A stretch of DNA of 64,000 nucleotides from Moraxella sp. (GTDB lineage: Bacteria; Pseudomonadota; Gammaproteobacteria; Pseudomonadales; Moraxellaceae), in contig JAUMYZ010000001.1 of the NCBI GenBank assembly GCA_030528385.1, positions 174,382 through 238,381 of the forward strand, read 5' to 3'. Of the stretch, positions 6,051 through 17,321 are shown piece by piece (position 1 is the stretch's first letter; each line of letters begins with the position of its first letter). Position numbers and translations under genes: made by a program. The notes under the pieces were generated by a model that saw only the letters and a program-made list of their open reading frames with translations, made no database searches and was not told the DNA's origin.

Positions 6051-6237
6051 AAGTTACAAAGTGATAACAAAAGTCTGTGGATATGGGGTGTACAAATTCA
6101 ACATCAGCCCTTAAACTAAACCAAAATAACAAATCTCAAGTAAAAATCGTTGGCGTTTTGACCAAAGCAATCAAATTCACAATAATACTTTGGATAACCC
6201 TAATTACAATAAATAACGACAATCTTTGGAGAAAAAT

Positions 6238-7839
6238 ATGTCAAATTTAATCCCCTTAGAATATCCTGTTGATGACGACGATTTGCCGTTTAGCAAAGAG
6301 TTTTTCTTTACACTGCTCGCTACCAGCTTGTCTTTGGATTTAGAAGACAAGATTAAGGTGATGAAGTCTTTGCCAACATTGTCTGTTTTTCAGATGGTGA
6401 GTTTGGTTGAAGTATGGATTGAAGAGCGCGTTAAGTTTGTGGAGCTGGGTAAAAAATATCCAGACGACATTAAAAAGCTGCTCGTTCAAATCACCCAAGA
6501 CTGGCAGACGCTCAAACAGATTTATGAATTGCCCGAACTGCTGAGCGATGAAGATGTGGCGCAGCAAATTGAACAGTTGTCGCAAAATGCAGCCTACCAA
6601 TTTGGGCTGACTGTGTCAAAAGCACTCTCAGGAACTGATGATGACGATGATGACGATGATGACGATGAAATAGCGGAAGAAGCGGAAGAAAAGGTTTGCA
6701 AAAGGGAGATGGGGCAAGAAAAAGGAGCAAGGAGCAGTTTGTTTAGCGCATTTGTCAATTTGGGTGTGGACAAAGAAATGGACAAGGCGCTGGCTTTGGA
6801 CGTTAAAATACCCAAGCCACATGAGCTTTGCCAAGAGCTTGAAAACATCATCATCGGACAGTCTAACGCGCTGTATACGCTGAGCACCATGCTGTATTAT
6901 CACAAATTGTTCGCTGTGCGTCTGGCGCAAAAATATAACAGAACTGACAGAAGTAGCCCAGTAAAATATATGGGTAATGGTGATGATTATGCCAGACAAC
7001 AACCCATATTGCTGATAGGGGCAACAGGCACAGGCAAAACGCATTTGATTAAACACGTTACCAAGGCGTTTGGTTTAAATGTGGTAACGGTGGATTGTTC
7101 AACGATGGTCAGAACTGGCATTGTTGGTTCTAGCTTAGACACCATCGGGCGCATGATTTATGAAGGTGCTAAAGAAGACGTTAGGGTTGCTGAAACTTCG
7201 GTGGTGGTGTTGGATGAATTTGACAAGCTGTTTTTAGAAGGCAGTAGAAAACTAGAAGTCGCTGTACAGTTGCTGACGGTGTTGGAAGGCTCAGCGCCAT
7301 TTCCCATAGAGCGCTACAACCAAGAAAAATCGCGCGATTATCCAGTCAGTATTTCAGCGGAGCGCATGATGTTTATTGTGTCAGGCTCTTTTGGCATGCA
7401 CCAAAAAAATCTGGCTCAGCGTTTTAGGGGTTTTAGCCACAATGATGTCAGCGAAAAACCATTGCAAGAATACGACCATGTGTTTTTGAGTGAATTTGGC
7501 TTGCCTGATGAGTTGCTGGGGCGTATTGGTCGCATTATATGTTTGGAGACGCTTGATGCCAAAGATTATGCCAGAGTGCTTTACCAGAGTCCAACGTCGC
7601 CATGGAATGTGTTACAAAACCAACTCAAAATGGTGGGTTGCACAGCGGAGTTGCCCGAGTATGTGGTTGAACATCTGATTGAACAGAACAAAGACGCCAT
7701 TGACAAATTTGGTTCAAGGGGGCTATATCAAGCATTTAACCGTTTGCCGTGCATTACTCAAATTTTGTTGCGCGCAACCACAGAAATAGGCTCAGACTTT
7801 AATATAGACGGGCATTTTATGGTGAGATTGGGTGCTTAA
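6238..7839 (+). CDS. Divergent ClpX-like AAA+ unfoldase with a novel acidic N-terminal domain (no ClpX zinc-binding domain)
   Basis: The C-terminal ~340 aa align motif-for-motif with ClpX: KIPKPHELCQELENIIIGQ, Walker A GATGTGKT, pore-1 GIVG, Walker B VVVLDEFDKL, and a LPDELLGRIGRI / SRGLYQAFNR C-domain. The N-terminal ~190 aa have no recognisable family and end in D10-E-rich low complexity. A GGAG Shine-Dalgarno sits 8 nt before the ATG at 6238; the ORF track began on an upstream TTG. Confidence 0.8.
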   Translation: MSNLIPLEYPVDDDDLPFSKEFFFTLLATSLSLDLEDKIKVMKSLPTLSVFQMVSLVEVWIEERVKFVELGKKYPDDIKKLLVQITQDWQTLKQIYELPELLSDEDVAQQIEQLSQNAAYQFGLTVSKALSGTDDDDDDDDDDEIAEEAEEKVCKREMGQEKGARSSLFSAFVNLGVDKEMDKALALDVKIPKPHELCQELENIIIGQSNALYTLSTMLYYHKLFAVRLAQKYNRTDRSSPVKYMGNGDDYARQQPILLIGATGTGKTHLIKHVTKAFGLNVVTVDCSTMVRTGIVGSSLDTIGRMIYEGAKEDVRVAETSVVVLDEFDKLFLEGSRKLEVAVQLLTVLEGSAPFPIERYNQEKSRDYPVSISAERMMFIVSGSFGMHQKNLAQRFRGFSHNDVSEKPLQEYDHVFLSEFGLPDELLGRIGRIICLETLDAKDYARVLYQSPTSPWNVLQNQLKMVGCTAELPEYVVEHLIEQNKDAIDKFGSRGLYQAFNRLPCITQILLRATTEIGSDFNIDGHFMVRLGA

Positions 7840-8138
7840 GGGCACCCGCAGCGCTTGTTAATGCTGACCAAGGCTTCTTCAATCAGCTGTTCACTGACTC
7901 CCTTTTTTTGCAATTCTTCTATAAATAGGGTGTCATTGGCAAGACTGTAATTGCAGTTGTCGCGGTCAAGCCCTTGGCGAATATAATAGCGTATCAGCCC
8001 TTGAATGGTGTTAAAGCCGTGCTCACCCATGGTGTGTTCTAAATGCCCGATAATCTCTTCAGAGAGTTTTAGGTGTATGGGGCGCATGATGGTTTGGGGG
8101 TGGTCAGAAAATTGATTTTTGATTTTTGGTGACAACAT
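7836..8138 (-). CDS. Small ribbon-helix-helix-like putative DNA-binding protein (about 100 aa)
   Basis: IHLKLSEEIIGHLEHTMGEHGFNTIQGLIRYYIRQGL fits a beta-strand/helix/helix RHH pattern. It is convergent with the ClpX-like gene and overlaps its stop by 4 nt. An alternative start lies at the internal Met (8087). Confidence 0.45.
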   Translation of the reverse strand: MLSPKIKNQFSDHPQTIMRPIHLKLSEEIIGHLEHTMGEHGFNTIQGLIRYYIRQGLDRDNCNYSLANDTLFIEELQKKGVSEQLIEEALVSINKRCGCP

Positions 8139-9177: not shown

Positions 9178-9241
9178 AGGCAAATTTACACTTTGTATCT
9201 TTGTTTGTTGCCAAACAATCTAAAATCACATAGAGGTGATT

Positions 9242-9856
9242 ATGTCTGCCAATTGGTCAGCGATTGCATATTTGCTAGCCGCCATTGGGCTGGTGGCGTT
9301 TATGCTGATGGTGCCACGTCTCTTGGGCGGTCGCTCGCACGGTTCACAAAAACAAGAAAGTTTTGAAGCAGGCGTGGTGTCTGCTGGTTCTGCTCGCATA
9401 CGTCTGTCTGCCAAGTTTTACTTGGTGGCGATTTTTTTTGTGATATTTGATTTGGAAGCCTTATTTTTATACGCTTATGCGGTGAGCGTGCGTGAAGTGG
9501 GCTGGGTGGGCTTTAGCGCCGCTGCGATTTTTATTGTCATTTTGTTTGTGGGTCTGGTTTATGAGATGAAACTTGGGGCGATGAACTGGGCACCTGCCGA
9601 CAAACGTAAGCCCAAGCCCCGCATTTATGAGCGTCCCGATGGCTTTGATTTGGCGAGCATTACCGCCTTTGATGGCATTGATGAGCTGCATAGCGACCCC
9701 ACAGGCAAAGTGCCTGCCCAGTCATCAGGGCGTATTAACGTCTCTAATGACATTGCCAAAAATCAAGCCCATATGAAAAACATTGACCACATCAACACCA
9801 CAGGACGTGTTACTACCCACGATTTTAGCTTAGATGAATACAAATCATCAAACTAA
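9242..9856 (+). CDS. nuoA: NADH-quinone oxidoreductase subunit A, with an ~85 aa hydrophilic C-terminal extension
   Basis: Three TM helices and the conserved LEALFLYAYAV region. AGAGGTGA Shine-Dalgarno lies before the ATG at 9242. Confidence 0.9.
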   Translation: MSANWSAIAYLLAAIGLVAFMLMVPRLLGGRSHGSQKQESFEAGVVSAGSARIRLSAKFYLVAIFFVIFDLEALFLYAYAVSVREVGWVGFSAAAIFIVILFVGLVYEMKLGAMNWAPADKRKPKPRIYERPDGFDLASITAFDGIDELHSDPTGKVPAQSSGRINVSNDIAKNQAHMKNIDHINTTGRVTTHDFSLDEYKSSN

Positions 9857-9934
9857 ACGCTACCTATGCGGTGGCGTTTTTGTGTTTAGATTGCCCATTA
9901 GCCAACAAAGTTAGCCAAACAAAAGTTTAGCCAT

Positions 9935-10603
9935 ATGAAATATACCTTAACCCGAGCCAATCCCAGTGCCAACCAATACCCCAAACAAAGCCGTCAAATC
10001 GTGGACGACATCACCCAAGCAGAAATTGACAAAAATGTCTTTATGGGCAAACTGTCCGATTTGACCCATTCGCTTGCTAATTGGGGGCGTAAAAATTCCT
10101 TATGGCCCTTTAACTTTGGCACAAGTTGCTGTTATGTGGAATACGCCACCACTTTGACAGGCGTACACGATTTGTCGCGTTTTGGGGCGGAAGTGATTCG
10201 GGCTTCACCGCGTCAGGCGGACGTGATGATTGTGGCGGGGACGTGTTTTGTCAAGATGGCACCTGTGATTTTGCGTCTGTATGAACAAATGCTAGAACCC
10301 AAATGGGTCATCTCCATGGGGGCGTGTGCCAATTCAGGCGGTATGTATGACATTTATTCGGTGGTGCAGGGCGTGGATAAAATTTTGCCTGTGGACGTGT
10401 ATATCCCTGGTTGCCCGCCCCGCCCCGAAGCGGTCATTCAAGCCCTGATGCTCTTGCAAGAGAGTATCACCCATGAACGCCGACCGCTGGGTATTCATCT
10501 TGACCAAGATATTTATCAGCCGATTATGACGCCAGAGCGAGACCGCAAGATGGCTGACCGCATTGCGGTAAAAAACTTGCGTAGCCCTGATAATGTGGAG
10601 TAG
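9935..10603 (+). CDS. nuoB: NADH-quinone oxidoreductase subunit B
   Basis: The N-terminus [10 protein letters not shown] matches E. coli MDYTLTRIDP. Also present are the [12 protein letters not shown]...KMAP and PGCPPRPE Fe-S (N2) ligating motifs. Confidence 0.95.
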
Positions 10604-10630
10604 TTGGGTGTGCAAATCGCAGAAAAAGGC

Positions 10631-11122
10631 ATGAATGTTGCCGCATTTAGCGAATTTATCAGCTTGTTTAATGGCTGTTATGGGCTAGGTGATGATGAGC
10701 TTGGTGGTTTGGTAGAAATTTATCAAGATGTGTATCAAGATGTGCCAAGTTTTCAAGCGTGGCTAGAAGAACAATTTGGATACCCTGTGGATTTGGACAG
10801 CATTGCCAACACGCCCAAAATGGTTTGGCTGCATACGTTGATGGTGCACTTTTTTGCTTGTTGTTATTTTGACGATTGGAAGTTTGATTGTCAGGCACTG
10901 AGCGACTATATCAGTCAATATACCGACACACCTTTTGTTATCAGCGATGATGAATATGCAGGCAATGTGGCAAATATATGTAGCAAATTAGAAGCCCAAA
11001 CGCCATACAGCCTATTAAATATTTGGGACGGTAATGATGATGTGTATTTTTGGTTGATTGATAAAACGCATAAGCCAAGATTGGAAAGTTTGGCAAAAAA
11101 GTTGGATATTTGGTTGGATTAA
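10631..11122 (+). CDS. Hypothetical acidic cytoplasmic protein inserted between nuoB and nuoCD (about 163 aa)
   Basis: Uninterrupted ORF with an ATG at 10631 (the ORF track starts on an upstream TTG). No recognisable family. Composition is visibly more AT-rich than the flanking nuo genes. Confidence 0.55.
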   Translation: MNVAAFSEFISLFNGCYGLGDDELGGLVEIYQDVYQDVPSFQAWLEEQFGYPVDLDSIANTPKMVWLHTLMVHFFACCYFDDWKFDCQALSDYISQYTDTPFVISDDEYAGNVANICSKLEAQTPYSLLNIWDGNDDVYFWLIDKTHKPRLESLAKKLDIWLD

Positions 11123-11388
11123 AGCTAAGGCAAAAAATCTGCAAGCCAAATTTTAATCTTTTAACAATCTATCAAAATTTGCTCTATGGTAAACAAAAAT
11201 TATGACCAACAAACTTTTAAAATACGGCATTGGCCCAACCAATCGCCCAAAAATCCCTGCGACCAAAAAGCTGGATTTAACAGGCAGAGAAGGGCAGTAA
11301 ATCATCAAAGTGTAAACCAACTTAGCATTTATCACCCAATTATTTTCAAACTTGCAAGTAATGCAAACCAAACAAAAAGCTGGAAGTT

Positions 11389-13140
11389 ATGAGCATAAAT
11401 CACATTCACGACAGACAAGTTTTTGATGAATTAAATCAACAATTTGCCAATCGCTACACCATTCAAGACACCGCAGACGGTATTCCCACCATTTGGGTGG
11501 ATAAAACAGACGTGCTTGATGTGCTGATGGCTTTGCGTACGTTGCCCAAGCCCTTTGTTATGTTGGTGGATTTGTCCGCCATGGATGAGCGTTTGCGTCA
11601 GCACCGTCATGGCTTGCCTGACAGTGATTTTACCGTGTTTTATCACTTGATGAGCCTTGAGCGAAACAGCGACATTCGTGTCAAAGTCGCCTTAAAAGAA
11701 GGCGAAAGCATCCCATCAGCGACCAAAATTTATCCCAATGCCAACTGGTATGAGCGAGAAGTGTGGGACATGTTTGGCGTGGTCTTTGATGGACATCCGC
11801 ATTTGACACGGATTTTATTGCCTAAATATTGGGAAGGGCACCCACTGCGCAAAGAGTACCATGCCCGAGCCACCGAATTTACGCCGTACTTTTTGAACAC
11901 TGCCAAGCAACAATTTGAACAAGAAAACCTACGCTTTGTCCCCGAAGAGTGGGGCATGAAACGCTCTGGGCGTGATGAAGACTTTATGTTTTTGAACATT
12001 GGCCCAAACCACCCATCGGCGCACGGGGCGTTTCGCTTGGTGCTGCAGCTTGATGGCGAAGAGATTGTAGACTGTATTCCTGATATTGGCTATCACCATC
12101 GTGGGGCGGAAAAGATGGCAGAACGCCAAACGTGGCATTCGTTTATCCCCTATACCGACCGCATTGACTATCTGGGCGGGGTGATGAATGAACTGCCTTA
12201 TATCATGGCGGTGGAAAAACTGGCGGGTATCACTGTGCCTGAACGTGCCAACACCATTCGTATCATGATGAGTGAGCTGTTTAGGATTACCAACAACTTG
12301 CTCTATTGGGGGACGTTTATCCAAGATGCGGGCGGTATGACCCCTGTGTTTTATATGTTTGCCGACCGTCAAAAGGCGTACGACATCATAGAAGCGGTAA
12401 CGGGCTATCGTATGCACCCTGCGTGGTTTAGAATCGGTGGTACGGCTCATGATTTGCCCAATGGCTGGCAAAAATTGGTGCGTGAGTTTTTGGATTGGAT
12501 GCCAAAACGCATTGATGAATATGTCAAAGCCACCATGACCAACACGGTACTAAAAGGACGCACGCAAAATGTCGCCCAATACGATGCCAAACGTGCCTTA
12601 GCATGGGGCGTAACGGGGGCGGGACTTCGTGCGACAGGCATTGACTTTGATTTGCGTAAAGCTCGTCCGTATTTGGGCTATGAAAACTTTGATTTTGAAA
12701 TCCCTGTGTTTTATAACGGCGACGCCTATGACAGATGTTTGGTGAAGATTGAAGAAATTCGCCAGTCTTTGCGTATCATTGAGCAATGTCTCAACAATAT
12801 GCCAAGCGGGGCGTACAAAGCTGAGCACCCTTTGGCAGTGCCGCCGCCCAAAGACAAAACTTTAAAAGACATTGAAACCTTGATTAACCACTTTGTGTCG
12901 GTCTCATGGGGGCCTGTGATGCCTGCAGGCGAGTCTGCTTGTATGGTAGAAGGGGTTAAGGGGCTAAACAGCTATTATGTAACGAGCGACAACTCAACGA
13001 TGAGTTACCGCACGCGTATCCGCACGCCAACCTTTGCCCATCTGCAACAAATGCCCAGCGTGATTAACGGCTCTTTGGTGTCGGACGCCATTATTTATTT
13101 GGCGAGTATTGATATTGTAATGGCGGATTGTGATAGATAA
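11389..13140 (+). CDS. nuoCD: NADH-quinone oxidoreductase fused subunit C/D
   Basis: Full-length collinear match to the E. coli fused NuoCD pattern ([38 protein letters not shown]). Confidence 0.95.
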
Positions 13141-13175
13141 AGTGTTTGATTAAAGATGATTTTGGTGGTAAAAAG

Positions 13176-13769
13176 ATGAAAGTTTATGGTGGTTTGCTGT
13201 TGGGGTGTCTGCTTTATTCGCCATCTGTATTGGCAAAAACCGATTGGACACCTGTGTTTGCTTCCATACAAAAAGATTGTGATTTTCATGCAAAAAAGTT
13301 GTCCAACTTATTTGCCAATTTACCAGCCCAATATCAATCGTCAGTACGTTCAAATCGTTTAAGTGAAAATAAACAATACACCATCACAAAGATAACACTA
13401 AACAATGCCCAAGCCTTTGGTTATCCTTTGACTGGCATTGAGCTTGGACAAAAAAAGGTGGGACTTGGCGATTATTTGACGCTGTATTTTGCCAACAAAC
13501 ACTTTCTTCAATTAAAACCCAAGTTTTATTATGCATTGAACGATGTCAAAATATACGCAGGTCAACAACAAGAATGGTCTGTTGTGAATGAAACAGGTGA
13601 AGAGATTTTTATCAGCACCGATATCAATGGCTATGATGTTGGGGTAGAAGACGTTGGCGTTACTCTTGAATTTCACCCAAAGAGCAACGCCCTAACCTGC
13701 CGTTTAAACCTTTATCAAATGGATAATGACGACCATCGTCAATCATCCCACAATAAAAAAGCAAGATGA
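13176..13769 (+). CDS. Secreted hypothetical protein (Sec signal peptide), inserted after nuoCD
   Basis: MKVYGGLLLGCLLYSPSVLA-KTDW signal peptide. GGTGGT Shine-Dalgarno lies 5 nt before the ATG at 13176. The stop overlaps the pilU start (ATGATGA). No recognisable family. Confidence 0.55.
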   Translation: MKVYGGLLLGCLLYSPSVLAKTDWTPVFASIQKDCDFHAKKLSNLFANLPAQYQSSVRSNRLSENKQYTITKITLNNAQAFGYPLTGIELGQKKVGLGDYLTLYFANKHFLQLKPKFYYALNDVKIYAGQQQEWSVVNETGEEIFISTDINGYDVGVEDVGVTLEFHPKSNALTCRLNLYQMDNDDHRQSSHNKKAR

Positions 13770-14920
13770 TGACCACACACCACATTTCTGAAGAATCTTT
13801 AATCGCCTTTGCCGAAGAGACCCTAAACGAAGCCAAGGCAATCATGTTTAATATGCTCACCAAAGTGGTGGAAATTGGGGCGTCTGACCTTTTTATCACT
13901 GCCGATTTTCCGCCGAGCGTCAAACATCAAGGTTTGATGAAGCCTTTGTCCAGACAGACCCTAAGTGGCGATAAAACCAAACTGTTTGCCTACAGCTTGA
14001 TGAACGACCATCAGCGAGACGAATTTGAACGGGAGATGGAGTGCAATTTTGCCATCAATGTGCCAAACGTCAGTCGTTTTCGCGTCAATGTTTTTGTGCA
14101 ACAGCAACACGTGGGCATGGTGATTCGCACCATCGCCGCCGAGATTCCCAATTTTGAAACGTTAAAACTGCCGCCGCAGTTAAAAGACGTGATTATGGAA
14201 AAACGTGGTTTGGTGCTGGTGGTGGGTGGCACAGGTTCAGGCAAATCCACGTCCTTGGCGGCGATGATTGATTATCGTAATGAAAATTCGGCAGGGCACA
14301 TCATCACCGTAGAAGACCCCGTAGAATATGTGCACAAACACAAAAAATCCATGATTACCCACCGTGAAGTGGGTGTGGATACGCATTCTTGGCACCATGC
14401 CCTAAAAAATACCTTGCGTCAAGCTCCTGACGTGATTTTAATCGGTGAGATTCGCGACACCGAGACGATGGAACACGCCATCGCCTTTGCTGAAACGGGG
14501 CATTTGTGCCTTGGGACATTGCACGCCAACAACGCCAACCAAACGCTAGACCGCATTATTAACTTTTTCCCCGAAGAACGCCGTCAGCAATTGCTGATGG
14601 ATTTGTCCAGCAACATGAAAGCCATTATTAGCCAGCGGCTTATCCGCACCCAAGATGGCAAAGGTCGGCGGGCGGCGGTGGAAGTGATGTTAAACACCCG
14701 TTTGGTGTCGGATTTGATTTTAAAGGGTGAGATGCACGAGCTAAAAGCGGTGATGACCAAAAGCCGTGAAGTGGGCATGCAGACCTTTGACCAAGCCTTG
14801 TTTGATTTGTATGACGAAGGGGCAATTAGTTATGACGAAGCCATCAGAAATGCCGACAGTGCCAATGAGCTTAGATTGCAAATTAAATTAAAGTCCAAGC
14901 GTGGCGAAGAAAAGGCATAA
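13766..14920 (+). CDS. pilU: Type IV pilus retraction-family ATPase PilU
   Basis: Collinear with P. aeruginosa PilU: Walker A GGTGSGKST, Asp box, Walker B DVILIGEIRD, His box TGHLCLGTLHANNANQ, and the PilU-type C-terminal tail DSANELRLQIKLK. Confidence 0.85.
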   Translation: MMTTHHISEESLIAFAEETLNEAKAIMFNMLTKVVEIGASDLFITADFPPSVKHQGLMKPLSRQTLSGDKTKLFAYSLMNDHQRDEFEREMECNFAINVPNVSRFRVNVFVQQQHVGMVIRTIAAEIPNFETLKLPPQLKDVIMEKRGLVLVVGGTGSGKSTSLAAMIDYRNENSAGHIITVEDPVEYVHKHKKSMITHREVGVDTHSWHHALKNTLRQAPDVILIGEIRDTETMEHAIAFAETGHLCLGTLHANNANQTLDRIINFFPEERRQQLLMDLSSNMKAIISQRLIRTQDGKGRRAAVEVMLNTRLVSDLILKGEMHELKAVMTKSREVGMQTFDQALFDLYDEGAISYDEAIRNADSANELRLQIKLKSKRGEEKA

Positions 14921-14933
14921 AGGCAGTGGCAAG

Positions 14934-15695
14934 ATGAAGGCGATTTTGCCTTTTTATAACAATGTCCATGCGTTAAACGAACACTTAACGCCATTTGTAA
15001 ACATTGATGAGATATTTGTAGAACATCAATCTTGGTTAAAAAAGCATTTTTTGCCACTGATTAGCATGGATTTGGGTATGTTAAATGATGAGTGGCGTGG
15101 GCAAGTGCTGCATATGCTAAACCCATTTGAGCCGTACGATGGTTATATTGGCGAATGCACCACAAAATACCACAACAAATTTGTCAGCACCAACTGGCTT
15201 GCGTTTAGACTGACCGATGATAATAAATATGAATTTTTGGGCGATGAGCGATATTTTGCCAAAAGTTCAAAGTACAAGCCGACAGACATGTTTGATGTAA
15301 GCGTTGATGGCAAAGACGGTTGTGATGATTTTCAAGCATATATTGACGAGAGTATAATCTATCATCGGTTTCGCCAACAGCGTTTTTATCAAACGGGCAA
15401 ATTGCTCAACGTTTATCCTAATGATGATGGCGACACAACAGCACAAAATTGGCTTGATAGCATGGGTGGCAAGCTGTCTGAAAATATGAAAGATTGGTTG
15501 TCTGATTGGGCGTTGCCAGCGGCATTTGTGAGCCAATGTCAAGATGATGAGCTACTCATCACCTACGATGACAATGCGTTTTATTTTATTGCTGGTGTGC
15601 CTGCCTATCGCTATGGCTGTCATGGGGCAGACCAGATTGTGTTGCTGTATGAGCCCGTCAGCCGAACGATATTATTTACTTATGGTTATATTTAG
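14934..15695 (+). CDS. Hypothetical acidic, Trp-rich protein (about 253 aa) immediately downstream of pilU
   Basis: Long ORF beginning 14 nt after the pilU stop. No motif recognised. The ORF-track start at 14901 overlaps pilU and was moved to the ATG at 14934. Confidence 0.55.
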   Translation: MKAILPFYNNVHALNEHLTPFVNIDEIFVEHQSWLKKHFLPLISMDLGMLNDEWRGQVLHMLNPFEPYDGYIGECTTKYHNKFVSTNWLAFRLTDDNKYEFLGDERYFAKSSKYKPTDMFDVSVDGKDGCDDFQAYIDESIIYHRFRQQRFYQTGKLLNVYPNDDGDTTAQNWLDSMGGKLSENMKDWLSDWALPAAFVSQCQDDELLITYDDNAFYFIAGVPAYRYGCHGADQIVLLYEPVSRTILFTYGYI

Positions 15696-15821
15696 ACTGA
15701 TGATGAGACATAAAGGTTTTTAAGATATTTTTTGCTGTGTTTTTATGATGGTATTAAAACAAAAAAGTGTCATTTAACCAGTGTGTTGTTTTATTTAGCA
15801 CTTGATAAAGGAGAAGTAATA

Positions 15822-16220
15822 ATGAAAGGTCAATGTTTGTGTCAAGCTGTTGGTATTGAGACGGTGGACAATCACGAACTGCACGCTTGCCACTGTGGTA
15901 ACTGTCGCACTTGGGGCGGTTCGGCGAACTTTTCTTTTTTAAGTCAAGGCGTGAACACAGATGATGGTGATAAGATTGCCCATTACCAATCGTCTGATTG
16001 GGGCGAGCGGGCGTTTTGCAAAACGTGTGGCACGCATTTGTATTTTCATCAGCTGGGCACGGACAATTATTATGTGTCGGCAGGCTTGTTTGATGATGTG
16101 GCATTTAAATTGGTTTCACAGATTTTTATTGATAAAAAAGCGTGTTATTATGAGCTTGCCAATGACACGCCCAAGCTGACCGAAAGTGAGTTTTTGGCGA
16201 TGGTTGCAGGTGAAAGTTAA
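15822..16220 (+). CDS. GFA-family (glutathione-dependent formaldehyde-activating / CENP-V-like) zinc protein
   Basis: The CxC...C...CxxC zinc-ligand pattern (CLCQAV, HACHCGNC, CKTCGTHLYF) is typical of PF04828. AAAGGAGAAG Shine-Dalgarno lies before the ATG at 15822. Confidence 0.75.
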   Translation: MKGQCLCQAVGIETVDNHELHACHCGNCRTWGGSANFSFLSQGVNTDDGDKIAHYQSSDWGERAFCKTCGTHLYFHQLGTDNYYVSAGLFDDVAFKLVSQIFIDKKACYYELANDTPKLTESEFLAMVAGES

Positions 16221-16223
16221 TCA

Positions 16224-16673
16224 ATGACGACCATAACAACTCGCCCAATGACCATCAATGACTATGATGACGTTGTTGCGTTATGGCTGTCTTGTGTTGG
16301 CATGGGACTAAATGACATTGATGACAGCAAAGTGGGTATTGATAAGTTTTTGCAAAGAAATCCAAGCACCTGCTTTGTGGCAACACAAGATGGGCAAATA
16401 GTGGGCGTGATATTATCAGGTCAAGATGGGCGACGTGCTTATATTTATCATTTGGCGGTTGCCCCAACACAGCGAAGATGGGGCATTGCCAAGCGTCTGG
16501 TAGATGAAGTTGAGTGTGCATTAGATAAGATGGTTATCAGCAAGGTCGCTTTGGTGGTGTTTGATAACAACCCAATTGGCAATGATTTTTGGGAAAGTCA
16601 AGGTTTTTATGTACGCCAAGATTTGCTTTATCGGGACAAAGCATTGGTAGACTTGGTGCGGATTGATACTTAA
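16224..16673 (+). CDS. GNAT-family N-acetyltransferase
   Basis: Acetyl-CoA binding motif A region (YIYHLAVAPTQRRWGIAKRLV) and GNAT size (149 aa). Confidence 0.8.
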   Translation: MTTITTRPMTINDYDDVVALWLSCVGMGLNDIDDSKVGIDKFLQRNPSTCFVATQDGQIVGVILSGQDGRRAYIYHLAVAPTQRRWGIAKRLVDEVECALDKMVISKVALVVFDNNPIGNDFWESQGFYVRQDLLYRDKALVDLVRIDT

Positions 16674-16811
16674 TTAAATTGATACCCAATTAAAAAGCCA
16701 CTAAGACATTGGTATTAAATTGATATAATGTTGGATAGCTCGGTGAGACACTTGTCATCGCCCAGCCAAATGACCAAAAGTTGGCAAATGCCAAAAGATG
16801 ATGGTAGCTTT

Positions 16812-17321
16812 ATGAAAATAGTAACCGACAAAACCCCCAAAGTGGATATTGACAGTATTTTGACCGCCGATGAGATTGTCGGTATCAAAGAATATATCCA
16901 TCATTATCCCCAGCCGCGGGCGGCGGTGCTGGACGCCCTAAAACTGGTACAAAGACGCAACGGCTGGATAGATGACGCCCAGCTACACGCCATTGCCAAT
17001 ATGCTGTCTATCCCAGCCGCTGACGTAGAAGGCGTGGCGACCTTTTTTAATCGCATTTATCGTATGCCTGTCGGTCGCCATGTGATTTTATTGTGCGACA
17101 GTATTGCTTGTTATTTGACAGGCTTTGAAGCGATAGAAAGCGAATTTAAACGCCAGCTGGGTATTGACTATGGACAAACCACCCCTGATGGCAGATTTAC
17201 GCTGTTGCCCATCTGCTGTTTGGGCAATTGCGACAAAGGAACAAGCGTTTTGATTGATGAAGATACCTATGGCTCGGTAACGCCTGCCGATGTGTCATTG
17301 TTATTGGAGCAGTATTTATGA
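16812..17321 (+). CDS. nuoE: NADH-quinone oxidoreductase subunit E
   Basis: [2Fe-2S] ligands (CDSIAC...CCLGNCD) and the NuoE fold pattern. The start is set at MKIVTDK; the ORF-track upstream extension is unlikely. Confidence 0.9.
   Translation: MKIVTDKTPKVDIDSILTADEIVGIKEYIHHYPQPRAAVLDALKLVQRRNGWIDDAQLHAIANMLSIPAADVEGVATFFNRIYRMPVGRHVILLCDSIACYLTGFEAIESEFKRQLGIDYGQTTPDGRFTLLPICCLGNCDKGTSVLIDEDTYGSVTPADVSLLLEQYL

What the first reader, a model, noticed from the sequence alone, without database searches (positions are those of the whole stretch)
6238..7839. Divergent ClpX paralogue with a novel acidic N-terminal domain and a degenerate IGF loop
The C-terminal two-thirds carry every ClpX hallmark in order. 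These are the KIPKPHELCQELENIIIGQ entry, Walker A GATGTGKT, pore-1 GIVG (GYVG in ClpX), Walker B DEFD and the ClpX-specific C-domain. The ~60 aa zinc-binding domain is replaced by a ~190 aa predicted helical, highly acidic domain of no recognisable family. The position of the ClpP-docking IGF loop reads RFRGF, not [LIV]-G-[FL]. A genuine clpX is expected elsewhere in the genome, so this looks like a dedicated substrate- or adaptor-specific unfoldase. It may act independently of ClpP or with an unusual partner. I know of no description of this architecture.
Basis: partly seen in the sequence, partly recalled or inferred. Interest (0 to 1): 0.75.

Follow-up and report, generated by a model that had tools for sequence, protein, structure and literature searches.

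The report
ClpX-like unfoldase with swapped N-domain
This Moraxella gene encodes a conserved relative of the protein-unfolding motor ClpX that has lost ClpX's zinc finger and instead carries a small helical docking module, unnamed in the domain libraries searched, which also occurs in large bacterial immune-type proteins; its function is untested.

Summary
The ORF is real: 6238-7839 (+), 533 aa, with a GGAG ribosome-binding site and its own promoter-like site. It is under purifying selection.

Its C-terminal 340 residues form a ClpX-clade AAA+ module with intact ATPase residues. It is not ClpX. It scores 106 bits against a cutoff of 359. It has no zinc finger, no RKH loop and no pore-2 loop. 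Pore-1 reads GIVG, and the IGF position reads RGF.

- **The "190-aa novel domain".** It is a roughly 100-aa five-helix acidic module followed by a disordered poly-acidic linker. The module is absent from Pfam and NCBIfam and has no clear PDB match, but it is widespread (743 representative clusters). It occurs in tandem in giant NB-ARC/TPR/FGE-sulfatase proteins carrying SIR2, CHAT or TIR domains, on Mrr nucleases, and on other ClpX-like ATPases.
- **The degenerate IGF loop.** It is confined to the window's small clade. 47 of 53 family clusters keep I/M/L-G-F, so ClpP docking was probably ancestral.

The gene is syntenic in Moraxella sp. VT-16-12, which also carries a sister paralogue. That sister subfamily lacks the module and mostly ends in an SSB-like D-D-x-P-F tail.

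I judge it a new variant of a known kind. I could not check for a canonical clpX in this genome.

The parts
6158..6186 (+). Promoter-like site (TTGACC-17-AATAAT) in the 187-nt dacB-AAA spacer
   Evidence: Consensus scan, 10 of 12 matches. This is a pattern match only.
6229..6232 (+). Shine-Dalgarno GGAG, 5 nt upstream of ATG 6238
   Evidence: Read directly from the sequence.
6238..7839 (+). Whole gene: 533-aa ClpX-like AAA+ ATPase (identical to P0001, 'AAA family ATPase [Moraxella sp.]')
   Evidence: dN/dS against the syntenic VT-16-12 orthologue is 0.155.
6277..6591 (+). N-terminal five-helix acidic module (residues 14-118). Consensus: fde..Fl.LLa.SlSL...EK.rii..P.LSQfQiDEL..iFeEEr.kF.eL
6592..6807 (+). 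Poly-acidic, largely disordered linker (residues 119-190, including D143-D152). Its length ranges from 0 to about 150 aa across the family
   Evidence: 21 D+E in 72 residues; pLDDT 48-69 for residues ~131-170. It is the least conserved segment (38% identity).
6808..7497 (+). AAA+ large subdomain (residues 191-420)
   Evidence: Alignments to ClpX. Foldseek top hits are ClpX.
7018..7041 (+). Walker A GATGTGKT (residues 261-268)
   Evidence: G261, T263, G264, G266 and K267 are invariant.
7114..7128 (+). Pore-1 loop TGIVG (residues 293-297), with Ile in place of ClpX Tyr153
   Evidence: G297 is invariant.
7210..7227 (+). Walker B LDEFDK (residues 325-330)
   Evidence: D326, E327, F328, D329 and K330 are invariant.
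7426..7434 (+). IGF-equivalent tripeptide R397-G398-F399, on a low-confidence flexible loop
   Evidence: Column of E. coli I268-G-F270. G398 and F399 are invariant. Low-pLDDT loop: 53-55 for residues 391-410, below 50 at 400-402.
7522..7524 (+). Arginine finger R429 (aligns with ClpX R307)
   Evidence: Invariant; alignment.
7498..7836 (+). AAA+ small (lid) subdomain, residues 421-533, with sensor-II R494 (7717-7719)
7836..8138 (-). Convergent 100-aa ORF overlapping the stop codon by 4 nt. It is a neighbour and is probably not part of the system
   Evidence: 90% identical in VT-16-12, where it does not overlap. Absent beside other family members. No family or RHH match.

Best explanation
The gene encodes a ring-forming ClpX-clade AAA+ unfoldase or remodeller. 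This is shown by its fold, its ATPase residues and its pore loop.

The ClpX zinc-binding domain has been replaced by an acidic five-helix protein-interaction module, tethered by a disordered poly-acidic linker. The RKH and pore-2 loops that ClpX uses to read ssrA-type degrons are missing. I therefore infer that clients are chosen by tethering to the N-module and are then threaded through the GIVG pore.

The ancestor of the family most likely docked on ClpP through an I/M/L-G-F loop. In the window's clade that hydrophobic residue is Arg or Lys, so I infer that ClpP coupling is weakened or lost. The protein would then act mainly as a stand-alone remodeller or disassembly motor.

The N-module is shared with STAND/FGE-sulfatase/SIR2/CHAT/TIR proteins and Mrr nucleases. 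This points to clients or partners within a conflict-type (immunity or stress) network. In Moraxella, however, the gene is a stably inherited chromosomal gene.
For: **ClpX-clade motor**
- NCBIfam ClpX 1.8e-30 against HslU 3.9e-9; PDB sequence hits are ClpX; Foldseek top 50 are all ClpX.
- Walker A, Walker B, Arg finger and sensor-II are invariant across 53 clusters.
- RKH and pore-2 loops are absent. Their role in ssrA recognition is described in PMC9035409.

**Real, selected gene**
- Purifying selection: dN/dS 0.155, similar to dacB (0.150) and lolA (0.179), and it covers the N-module.
- Full synteny in VT-16-12.

**N-module**
- Confident five-helix fold; acidic, median pI 5.1.
- 743 representative clusters carry it.
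- Co-occurring domains among 23 giant proteins include NB-ARC in 12, FGE-sulfatase in 12 and SIR2 in 5, plus CHAT, TIR, Mrr, FRG and ClpX-like AAA.

**ClpP docking loop**
- Across the 53 family clusters plus 5 canonical ClpX added to the alignment, the IGF column reads IGF 35, MGF 11, LGF 4 and VGF 2. Within the family, 47 of 53 clusters keep I/M/L-G-F.
- Only P0001 has RGF, and only its three closest clusters have KGF.
- The loop is flexible in the model.

**Order of events**
- A neighbour-joining tree places N-module ATPases from other taxa basal to the Moraxellaceae clade.
Against: - No biochemistry exists for any family member.
- Ile in place of the pore-1 Tyr may weaken substrate grip.
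- R/K-G-F might still dock on ClpP. An extra Phe two residues upstream (RF-R-GF, HF-K-GF) is conserved in the clade.
- No partner carrying the N-module was found in the 64-kb window or in the flanks of 15 loci.
- The gene lies among housekeeping genes (dcd, dacB, lolA, nuo), not in a defence island, and its GC content is unremarkable.
- The tree has no support values.
Confidence: 0.6

Rival explanations
1. It is still a ClpP-coupled protease specificity subunit. The RF-R-GF loop docks in ClpP's hydrophobic clefts well enough, and the protein delivers clients bound by its N-module for degradation.
For: The family-wide I/M/L-G-F motif sits on a flexible loop at the exact ClpX IGF position, and G398 and F399 are invariant. 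A conserved Phe lies two residues upstream in the clade. The AAA+ fold is ClpX-like.
Against: A charged Arg or Lys replaces the first hydrophobic residue of the ClpP-docking IGF tripeptide (IGF loop function: PMC9035409). The pore-2 loop, which in ClpX also contacts ClpP (my own recollection), is deleted. The gene is not next to clpP.
Confidence: 0.3
2. It is a working component of an anti-invader (conflict) system. The N-module is an effector-associated-type adaptor that recruits the unfoldase to STAND sensors or other proteins carrying the same module elsewhere in the genome.
For: The module co-occurs with NB-ARC, FGE-sulfatase, TPR, SIR2, CHAT, TIR, Mrr and FRG domains. [quoted passage not shown]
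Against: No second copy was found in adjacent genes in any of 15 loci. In the giant proteins the module is arrayed in tandem after the FGE-sulfatase domain rather than as a terminal single copy. It is not bDLD3 (hhalign probability 3.3%). PADLOC gives only weak P-loop hits. The context is housekeeping and syntenic. There are no phage or plasmid homologues beyond canonical ClpX level.
Confidence: 0.25
3. It is the lineage's only ClpX, with a lineage-specific replacement of the zinc-binding domain.
For: I could not search the rest of the genome, so this is not formally excluded.
Against: It scores 106 and 83 bits against ClpX equivalog cutoffs of 359 and 371, at 24% identity to E. coli ClpX. RKH and pore-2 loops are missing. 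VT-16-12 carries two such paralogues. The family proper was found in only about 6 species genomes (with the row-limit caveat). Acinetobacter, in the same family Moraxellaceae, has a canonical tig-clpP-clpX.
Confidence: 0.03
4. It is a decaying or catalytically dead paralogue with no function.
For: Pore-1 Tyr is replaced by Ile, the IGF position is degenerate, and the linker is of low complexity.
Against: All ATPase residues are invariant. dN/dS is 0.155 across both domains. The reading frame is intact in two species, with an SD and a promoter-like site.
Confidence: 0.03

Closest known systems
ClpX (ATP-dependent Clp protease ATP-binding subunit; NCBIfam PRK05342 / TIGR00382)
   Same: The AAA+ large and small subdomains share the ClpX fold. 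The order of elements is the same: N-terminal entry helix, Walker A, pore-1, Walker B, a flexible loop at the IGF position, Arg finger and sensor-II.
   Different: It has no C4 zinc-binding domain, and pore-1 is GIVG rather than GYVG. The RKH loop is absent and the pore-2 loop is deleted. The IGF position reads RGF. It is not in a clpP-clpX operon, and it scores far below the equivalog cutoffs.
[quoted passage not shown] 2021, PMC8195603)
   Same: The architectural idea is the same: a small helical non-catalytic adaptor sits N-terminal to a Clp-type AAA+ motor. That adaptor also occurs on STAND NTPases and on effectors such as SIR2, caspase-like and TIR domains.
   Different: The module here is not bDLD3 (hhalign probability 3.3%) and has no Pfam hit. 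It is arrayed in tandem inside the giant proteins, and no paired copy in an adjacent gene was seen.
STAND NTPase-FGS (FGE-sulfatase / C-type-lectin-fold) conflict systems (PMC8195603, PMC7159879)
   Same: The giant proteins that share the N-module have exactly this core: NB-ARC, TPR and FGE-sulfatase, with N-terminal SIR2, CHAT or TIR.
   Different: The window protein has none of these domains and shares only the module. The module follows the FGE-sulfatase domain in 2 to 6 copies per protein. I did not find that feature in the passages of those papers that I read.
HslU
   Same: It belongs to the same ClpX/HslU branch of AAA+, with a weak HMM match over the first ~125 residues of the AAA+ module (residues 194-317).
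   Different: It scores 36 bits against a cutoff of 362, and ClpX scores much higher.
Sister subfamily in Moraxellaceae (e.g. P0030, Moraxella sp. VT-16-12)
   Same: It has the same AAA+ family core (36% identity), the same missing RKH and pore-2 loops, and the I/M-G-F loop retained.
   Different: It has no N-module, and pore-1 is G-Y-K-G. It carries a Pro-rich tail ending in [DE]-D-x-[MLI]-P-F, like the SSB C-terminal tip DDDIPF. It sits directly after miaB.

Membership tests
ClpX (equivalog) | Whole-protein score at or above the curated NCBIfam cutoff | tested here: not met
   PRK05342 scores 106.2 bits against a cutoff of 359. TIGR00382 scores 82.9 against 370.75.
ClpX (equivalog) | N-terminal C4 zinc-binding domain (PF06689) | tested here: not met
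   No PF06689 in the protein or in any of family clusters P0001-P0053, whereas most true ClpX hits carry it. Residues 1-190 contain one Cys.
ClpX (equivalog) | Walker A, Walker B, arginine finger and sensor-II | tested here: met
   K267, D326/E327, R429 and R494 are invariant and align with the ClpX motifs GPTGSGKT, DEIDK, GRLP and GARGLR.
ClpX (equivalog) | Pore-1 loop GYVG with Tyr153 | tested here: not met
   It reads TGIVG, with Ile at the Tyr position. This holds across the N-module subfamily.
ClpX (equivalog) | RKH loop and pore-2 loop | tested here: not met
   The GGRKH motif is absent, and the ClpX segment NPSITRDVSGEGVQQ is replaced by a short gap-rich stretch.
ClpX (equivalog) | [LIVM]-G-F tripeptide on a flexible ClpP-docking loop | tested here: not met
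   The window protein has R397-G-F, and its three closest clusters have K-G-F. 47 of 53 family clusters keep I/M/L-G-F.
ClpX (equivalog) | Physical and functional coupling to ClpP | not testable with these tools
   This needs pull-down and peptidase-activation assays. No clpP lies in the window.
ClpX (equivalog) | clpP-clpX gene pair | tested here: not met
   The neighbours are dacB and a small ORF followed by lolA. A. baumannii has tig-clpP-clpX.
ClpX-clade AAA+ fold (broader) | The AAA+ module is structurally closest to ClpX | tested here: met
   The top 50 Foldseek PDB hits are all ClpX, with E down to 5e-16 and target-normalised TM-scores of 0.60-0.81.
Effector-associated domains (EAD/bDLD; Kaur et al.) | Small, non-catalytic, mostly alpha-helical domain fused to diverse effector and NTPase-core proteins | tested here: met
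   The core matched across proteins is about 80 aa, within a five-helix, ~105-aa modelled segment. It is fused to NB-ARC, SIR2, CHAT, TIR, Mrr, FRG, HisKA and AAA domains.
Effector-associated domains (EAD/bDLD; Kaur et al.) | A second copy in an adjacent gene, giving a core-plus-effector pair | tested here: not met
   No second copy was found in neighbouring ORFs of the window or 14 other loci. Copies are tandem within one polypeptide.
Effector-associated domains (EAD/bDLD; Kaur et al.) | Further copies elsewhere in the same genome | not testable with these tools
Effector-associated domains (EAD/bDLD; Kaur et al.) | Sequence membership in a described EAD or bDLD family | tested here: not met
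   hhalign against the bDLD3 alignment gives probability 3.3%. No Pfam-A hit at E<=1. The SLSL motif is absent from the published alignments that were searchable. EAD1-12 profiles were not available for profile-profile comparison.
HslU | Equivalog score | tested here: not met
   TIGR00390 scores 36 bits against a cutoff of 362.
IetA / other PADLOC defence ATPases | Full-length match plus the partner gene (IetS) | tested here: not met
   The best PADLOC hit is IetA at 27.6 bits over ~80 residues around the P-loop only. The NCBIfam IteA antiphage model scores 26.8 against a cutoff of 510. No protease partner lies nearby.

The most novel reading that the evidence does not exclude
The 'SLSL-EK' module is a new adaptor class, functionally analogous to Death-like and EAD adaptors. 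It would plug a dedicated ClpX-like unfoldase, ancestrally ClpP-coupled, into STAND/FGE-sulfatase immune sensors. The unfoldase would then serve as an unfolding or proteolytic arm, or as an off-switch that disassembles the sensor oligomers.

In Moraxellaceae this motor was duplicated. One copy lost ClpP docking. The other swapped the module for an SSB C-terminal-tip mimic that would direct it to the SSB interactome.
Probability: 0.15. Interest if true: 0.85.

Novelty: new variant of a known kind. Interest (0 to 1): 0.6.

Why it matters
ClpX is one of the best-understood protein-unfolding machines. Natural variants that exchange its substrate-selection domain and alter its ClpP-docking loop show how such a motor can be re-targeted.

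- **An uncurated domain.** The N-module is carried by at least 743 representative clusters, yet it has no Pfam, NCBIfam or PDB counterpart. It recurs in giant STAND/FGE-sulfatase/SIR2/CHAT/TIR proteins of the kind implicated in bacterial immunity. Defining what it binds would annotate hundreds of proteins at once.
- **A natural experiment on ClpP docking.** The clade-specific change from Ile to Arg or Lys offers a direct comparison of docking loops.
- **A possible link to DNA metabolism.** The sister subfamily's SSB-tip-like tail suggests an AAA+ unfoldase connected to the SSB interaction network. I found no description of this.

Tried and rejected
**Searches for the N-module that found nothing useful**
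- Pfam, NCBIfam, PADLOC and PHROGs gave no family.
- A PDB profile search gave nothing below E=0.5.
- Foldseek against viral structures gave nothing.
- The afdb50 library was not available.
- The word-indexed protein search with the N-module profile found only one hit.
- A viral-contig scan with the profile failed because no stretch was conserved enough.

**Hypotheses tested and rejected**
- bDLD3 identity: hhalign probability 3.3%. The motif is also absent from the searchable supplementary alignments of both Aravind-lab papers.
- Mobile origin: phage and plasmid tblastn gave only canonical-ClpX-level matches (25-29% identity), none covering the N-module.
- Operonic partner: contexts in Moraxellaceae, Pontibacterium and other loci share no conserved neighbour.
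- RHH assignment of the neighbouring 100-aa ORF: no support.

**Attempt that did not answer its question**
- I tried to show a canonical ClpX in Moraxella by querying with A. baumannii ClpX. The search returned only Acinetobacter clusters.

**Literature**
- Searches for a ClpX-like protein in Moraxella, or for an SSB-tip mimic on an AAA+ protein, found nothing.
Full report
**1.

An ORF runs from 6226 (TTG) or 6238 (ATG) to 7839 on the + strand. ATG 6238 lies 5 nt downstream of GGAG (6229-6232). A promoter-like TTGACC-17-AATAAT site sits at 6158-6186, inside the 187-nt spacer after dacB. The 533-aa product is identical to a database protein named only 'AAA family ATPase [Moraxella sp.]', from a 264,948-bp MAG contig.

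- entry helix IPKPHELCQELENIIIGQ, residues 191-208
- Walker A GATGTGKT, 261-268
- pore-1 TGIVG, 293-297
- Walker B LDEFDK, 325-330
- arginine finger R429
- sensor-II R494

E. coli ClpX I268-G-F270 aligns with R397-G398-F399.

**2. It is ClpX-like but not ClpX**

ClpX is clearly the nearest known family. NCBIfam ClpX gives E=1.8e-30 against 3.9e-9 for HslU. The best PDB sequence matches are ClpX. The top 50 Foldseek hits of the full-length AlphaFold2 model (pLDDT 87, pTM 0.84) are all ClpX chains, with target-normalised TM-scores of 0.60-0.81.

The protein nevertheless fails ClpX membership:
- It scores 106 bits against a curated cutoff of 359.
- It has no zf-C4_ClpX domain.
- Ile replaces the pore-1 Tyr.
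- The GGRKH (RKH) loop is absent.
- The pore-2 segment NPSITRDVSGEGVQQ is essentially deleted.

In ClpX the RKH and pore-2 loops, together with pore-1, read the ssrA degron (PMC9035409). This protein therefore cannot select substrates the way ClpX does.

**3. The family**

About 53 clusters at 90% identity belong to the family (E<=1e-20). Canonical ClpX proteins appear only after them, at about 26% identity. Among one-per-species genomes, the family proper was found in about six Moraxellaceae genomes.

Moraxella sp. VT-16-12 carries the orthologue in full synteny: dcd, a PHA_gran_rgn small gene, dacB, AAA, the 100-aa ORF, lolA, nuoA and nuoB. Against that orthologue, dN/dS is 0.155, the same as for dacB (0.150) and lolA (0.179). 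Constraint is seen on both the N-module and the AAA+ part. The gene is therefore functional and vertically inherited. Its GC content is unremarkable. It has no phage or plasmid relatives beyond canonical-ClpX level.

**4. The N-terminal region is two things**

Residues 14-118 fold confidently into five helices (pLDDT 92.6, pTM 0.84). Residues 119-190 form a poly-acidic linker, with 21 D+E in 72 residues and a run of ten Asp. Model confidence there is low. Its length ranges from 0 to about 150 aa across relatives, and it is the least conserved segment.

The helical module has no match in the libraries I could search:
- no Pfam or NCBIfam model
- no PDB sequence match
- no viral structural match

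It is far from unique, however. A profile search of 1.84 billion representative proteins finds 743 clusters at E<=1e-3 and 297 at E<=1e-10. I looked at the Pfam content of the 144 listed carriers outside the window's own family:
- **Giant proteins (23 examined).** NB-ARC occurs in 12, FGE-sulfatase in 12 and SIR2 in 5. TPR, CHAT, TIR, NACHT and HisKA/HATPase also occur.
- **Shorter proteins (121 examined).** Most have no other domain. Some carry TPR, Mrr nuclease, FRG, ParA-like or DnaJ domains. Five carry a ClpX-like AAA+ module, for example in a Pontibacterium MAG.

The fact that no Pfam family covers more than 6 of the 121 shorter carriers shows that the module itself is not modelled in Pfam. 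In the giant proteins it occurs in 2-6 tandem copies, commonly 80-180 residues apart, and where FGE-sulfatase was located (P0121) the first copy follows it. The module is acidic, with a median pI of 5.1. That argues for protein binding rather than nucleic-acid binding.

**5. Relation to described systems**

STAND-FGS conflict systems and the 'effector-associated domain' principle are described by Kaur et al. (PMC7159879, PMC8195603). [quoted passage not shown] That is the closest published architecture.

The module here is not bDLD3: hhalign probability is 3.3% against the published alignment. The defining EAD pattern, a second copy in an adjacent gene, was not seen in the window or in 14 other loci. 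I therefore treat the module as an unnamed, conflict-associated interaction module. I do not file it as a member of a described EAD family.

**6. The ClpP-docking loop**

Across the 53 family clusters plus 5 canonical ClpX sequences added to the alignment, the IGF column reads:

| Tripeptide | Count |
|---|---|
| IGF | 35 |
| MGF | 11 |
| LGF | 4 |
| VGF | 2 |
| KGF | 3 |
| RGF | 1 |
| FGF | 1 |
| SGF | 1 |

Within the family, 47 of 53 clusters keep I/M/L-G-F; both VGF sequences are canonical ClpX. Only the window protein (RGF) and its three nearest clusters (KGF) carry a charged residue there. The N-module ATPases from other taxa also read I/M/V-G-F, apart from P0163, which reads S-G-F. The loop has low model confidence in the full-length model, as expected for a flexible loop.

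So ClpP coupling was probably ancestral and has been weakened or lost in this clade. A conserved Phe two residues upstream (RF-R-GF) leaves room for residual docking.

**7. Evolutionary sketch**

This rests on a neighbour-joining tree without support values. Moving outward from canonical ClpX, the tree shows divergent ClpX-like proteins, then N-module ATPases in several taxa, then two sister Moraxellaceae subfamilies. One keeps the module (18 of 53 clusters). The other lacks it.

Among the 35 clusters without the module, 26 end in [MLIFV]-P-F, typically preceded by acidic residues after a Pro-rich tail. None of the 67 canonical or divergent ClpX-like hits in the same search does. This resembles the SSB C-terminal tip DDDIPF (PMC5872125). 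That sister gene sits directly after miaB in 3 of 5 loci.

**8. Mechanism**

- **Shown:** the fold, the intact ATPase site, purifying selection, the modular N-terminus and the state of the loops.
- **Inferred:** hexamer formation, client tethering through the N-module, threading through the GIVG pore, and reduced ClpP coupling.
- **Unknown:** the clients, and whether other module-bearing proteins exist in the same genome.

**9. What could not be settled**

I could not check whether a canonical clpX-clpP exists elsewhere in this genome. The window has none. My attempt through A. baumannii ClpX returned only Acinetobacter proteins. From general knowledge, clpP-clpX is near-universal in Gammaproteobacteria, so paralogue status is very likely, but it was not tested here.

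**10. Verdict**

The finding is real and non-trivial: a new variant of a known kind. The 'unique novel domain' and the 'ClpP-independent family' readings both need correction. The most valuable by-products are the uncurated widespread module and the SSB-tip-like sister subfamily.

Noticed in passing
Related proteins P0017-P0051; loci L003 10001-11119, L008, L010: A sister subfamily of the same ClpX-like family lacks the N-module and has pore-1 G-Y-K-G. In 26 of 35 clusters it ends in a Pro-rich tail with [DE]-D-x-[MLI]-P-F at the very C-terminus, like the SSB C-terminal tip DDDIPF. In 3 of 5 loci it lies directly after miaB.
   Followed up: partly
window 6271-6291 (residues 12-18): The window clade has D-D-D-D-L-P-F just before the N-module, and close relatives have D-E-D-L-P-F. 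It resembles the SSB-tip-like tail of the sister subfamily. However, this Phe aligns with the conserved 'f-d-e' start of the module, so the resemblance may be coincidental.
   Followed up: partly
window 7836-8138 (-): A convergent 100-aa ORF overlaps the AAA stop codon by 4 nt. It is 90% identical in Moraxella sp. VT-16-12, far more conserved than its neighbours, and does not overlap there. It has no Pfam, NCBIfam or PDB match, and the RHH label is unsupported.
   Followed up: partly
window 9236-17321: The nuo operon is interrupted by non-nuo genes. A DUF6630 gene (10604-11122) lies between nuoB and nuoCD and is conserved in VT-16-12. Between nuoCD and nuoE lie an unassigned 207-aa ORF, a PilT/PilU-like T2SSE ATPase (13766-14920), an unassigned 264-aa ORF and a GFA-family gene.
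   Followed up: partly
Proteins P0121-P0134; loci L091-L093: In giant STAND/FGE-sulfatase proteins, the same module that forms the window protein's N-domain occurs as 2-6 tandem copies. In P0121 the first copy follows the FGE-sulfatase domain. One example is from Sorangium sp. So ce388. This tandem layout differs from the single terminal adaptor pattern described for EADs.
   Followed up: partly
L010 2341-3412: The sister-subfamily gene in one Moraxella MAG matches as two pieces in different frames. This could be a frameshift or an assembly error.
   Followed up: no
Proteins P0131 (240 aa), P0137 (204 aa), P0139 (125 aa, at a contig end): Several 'small' carriers of the module look like truncated N-terminal fragments of family ATPases (for example of P0008 and P0006). 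The count of stand-alone module proteins is therefore somewhat inflated.
   Followed up: no
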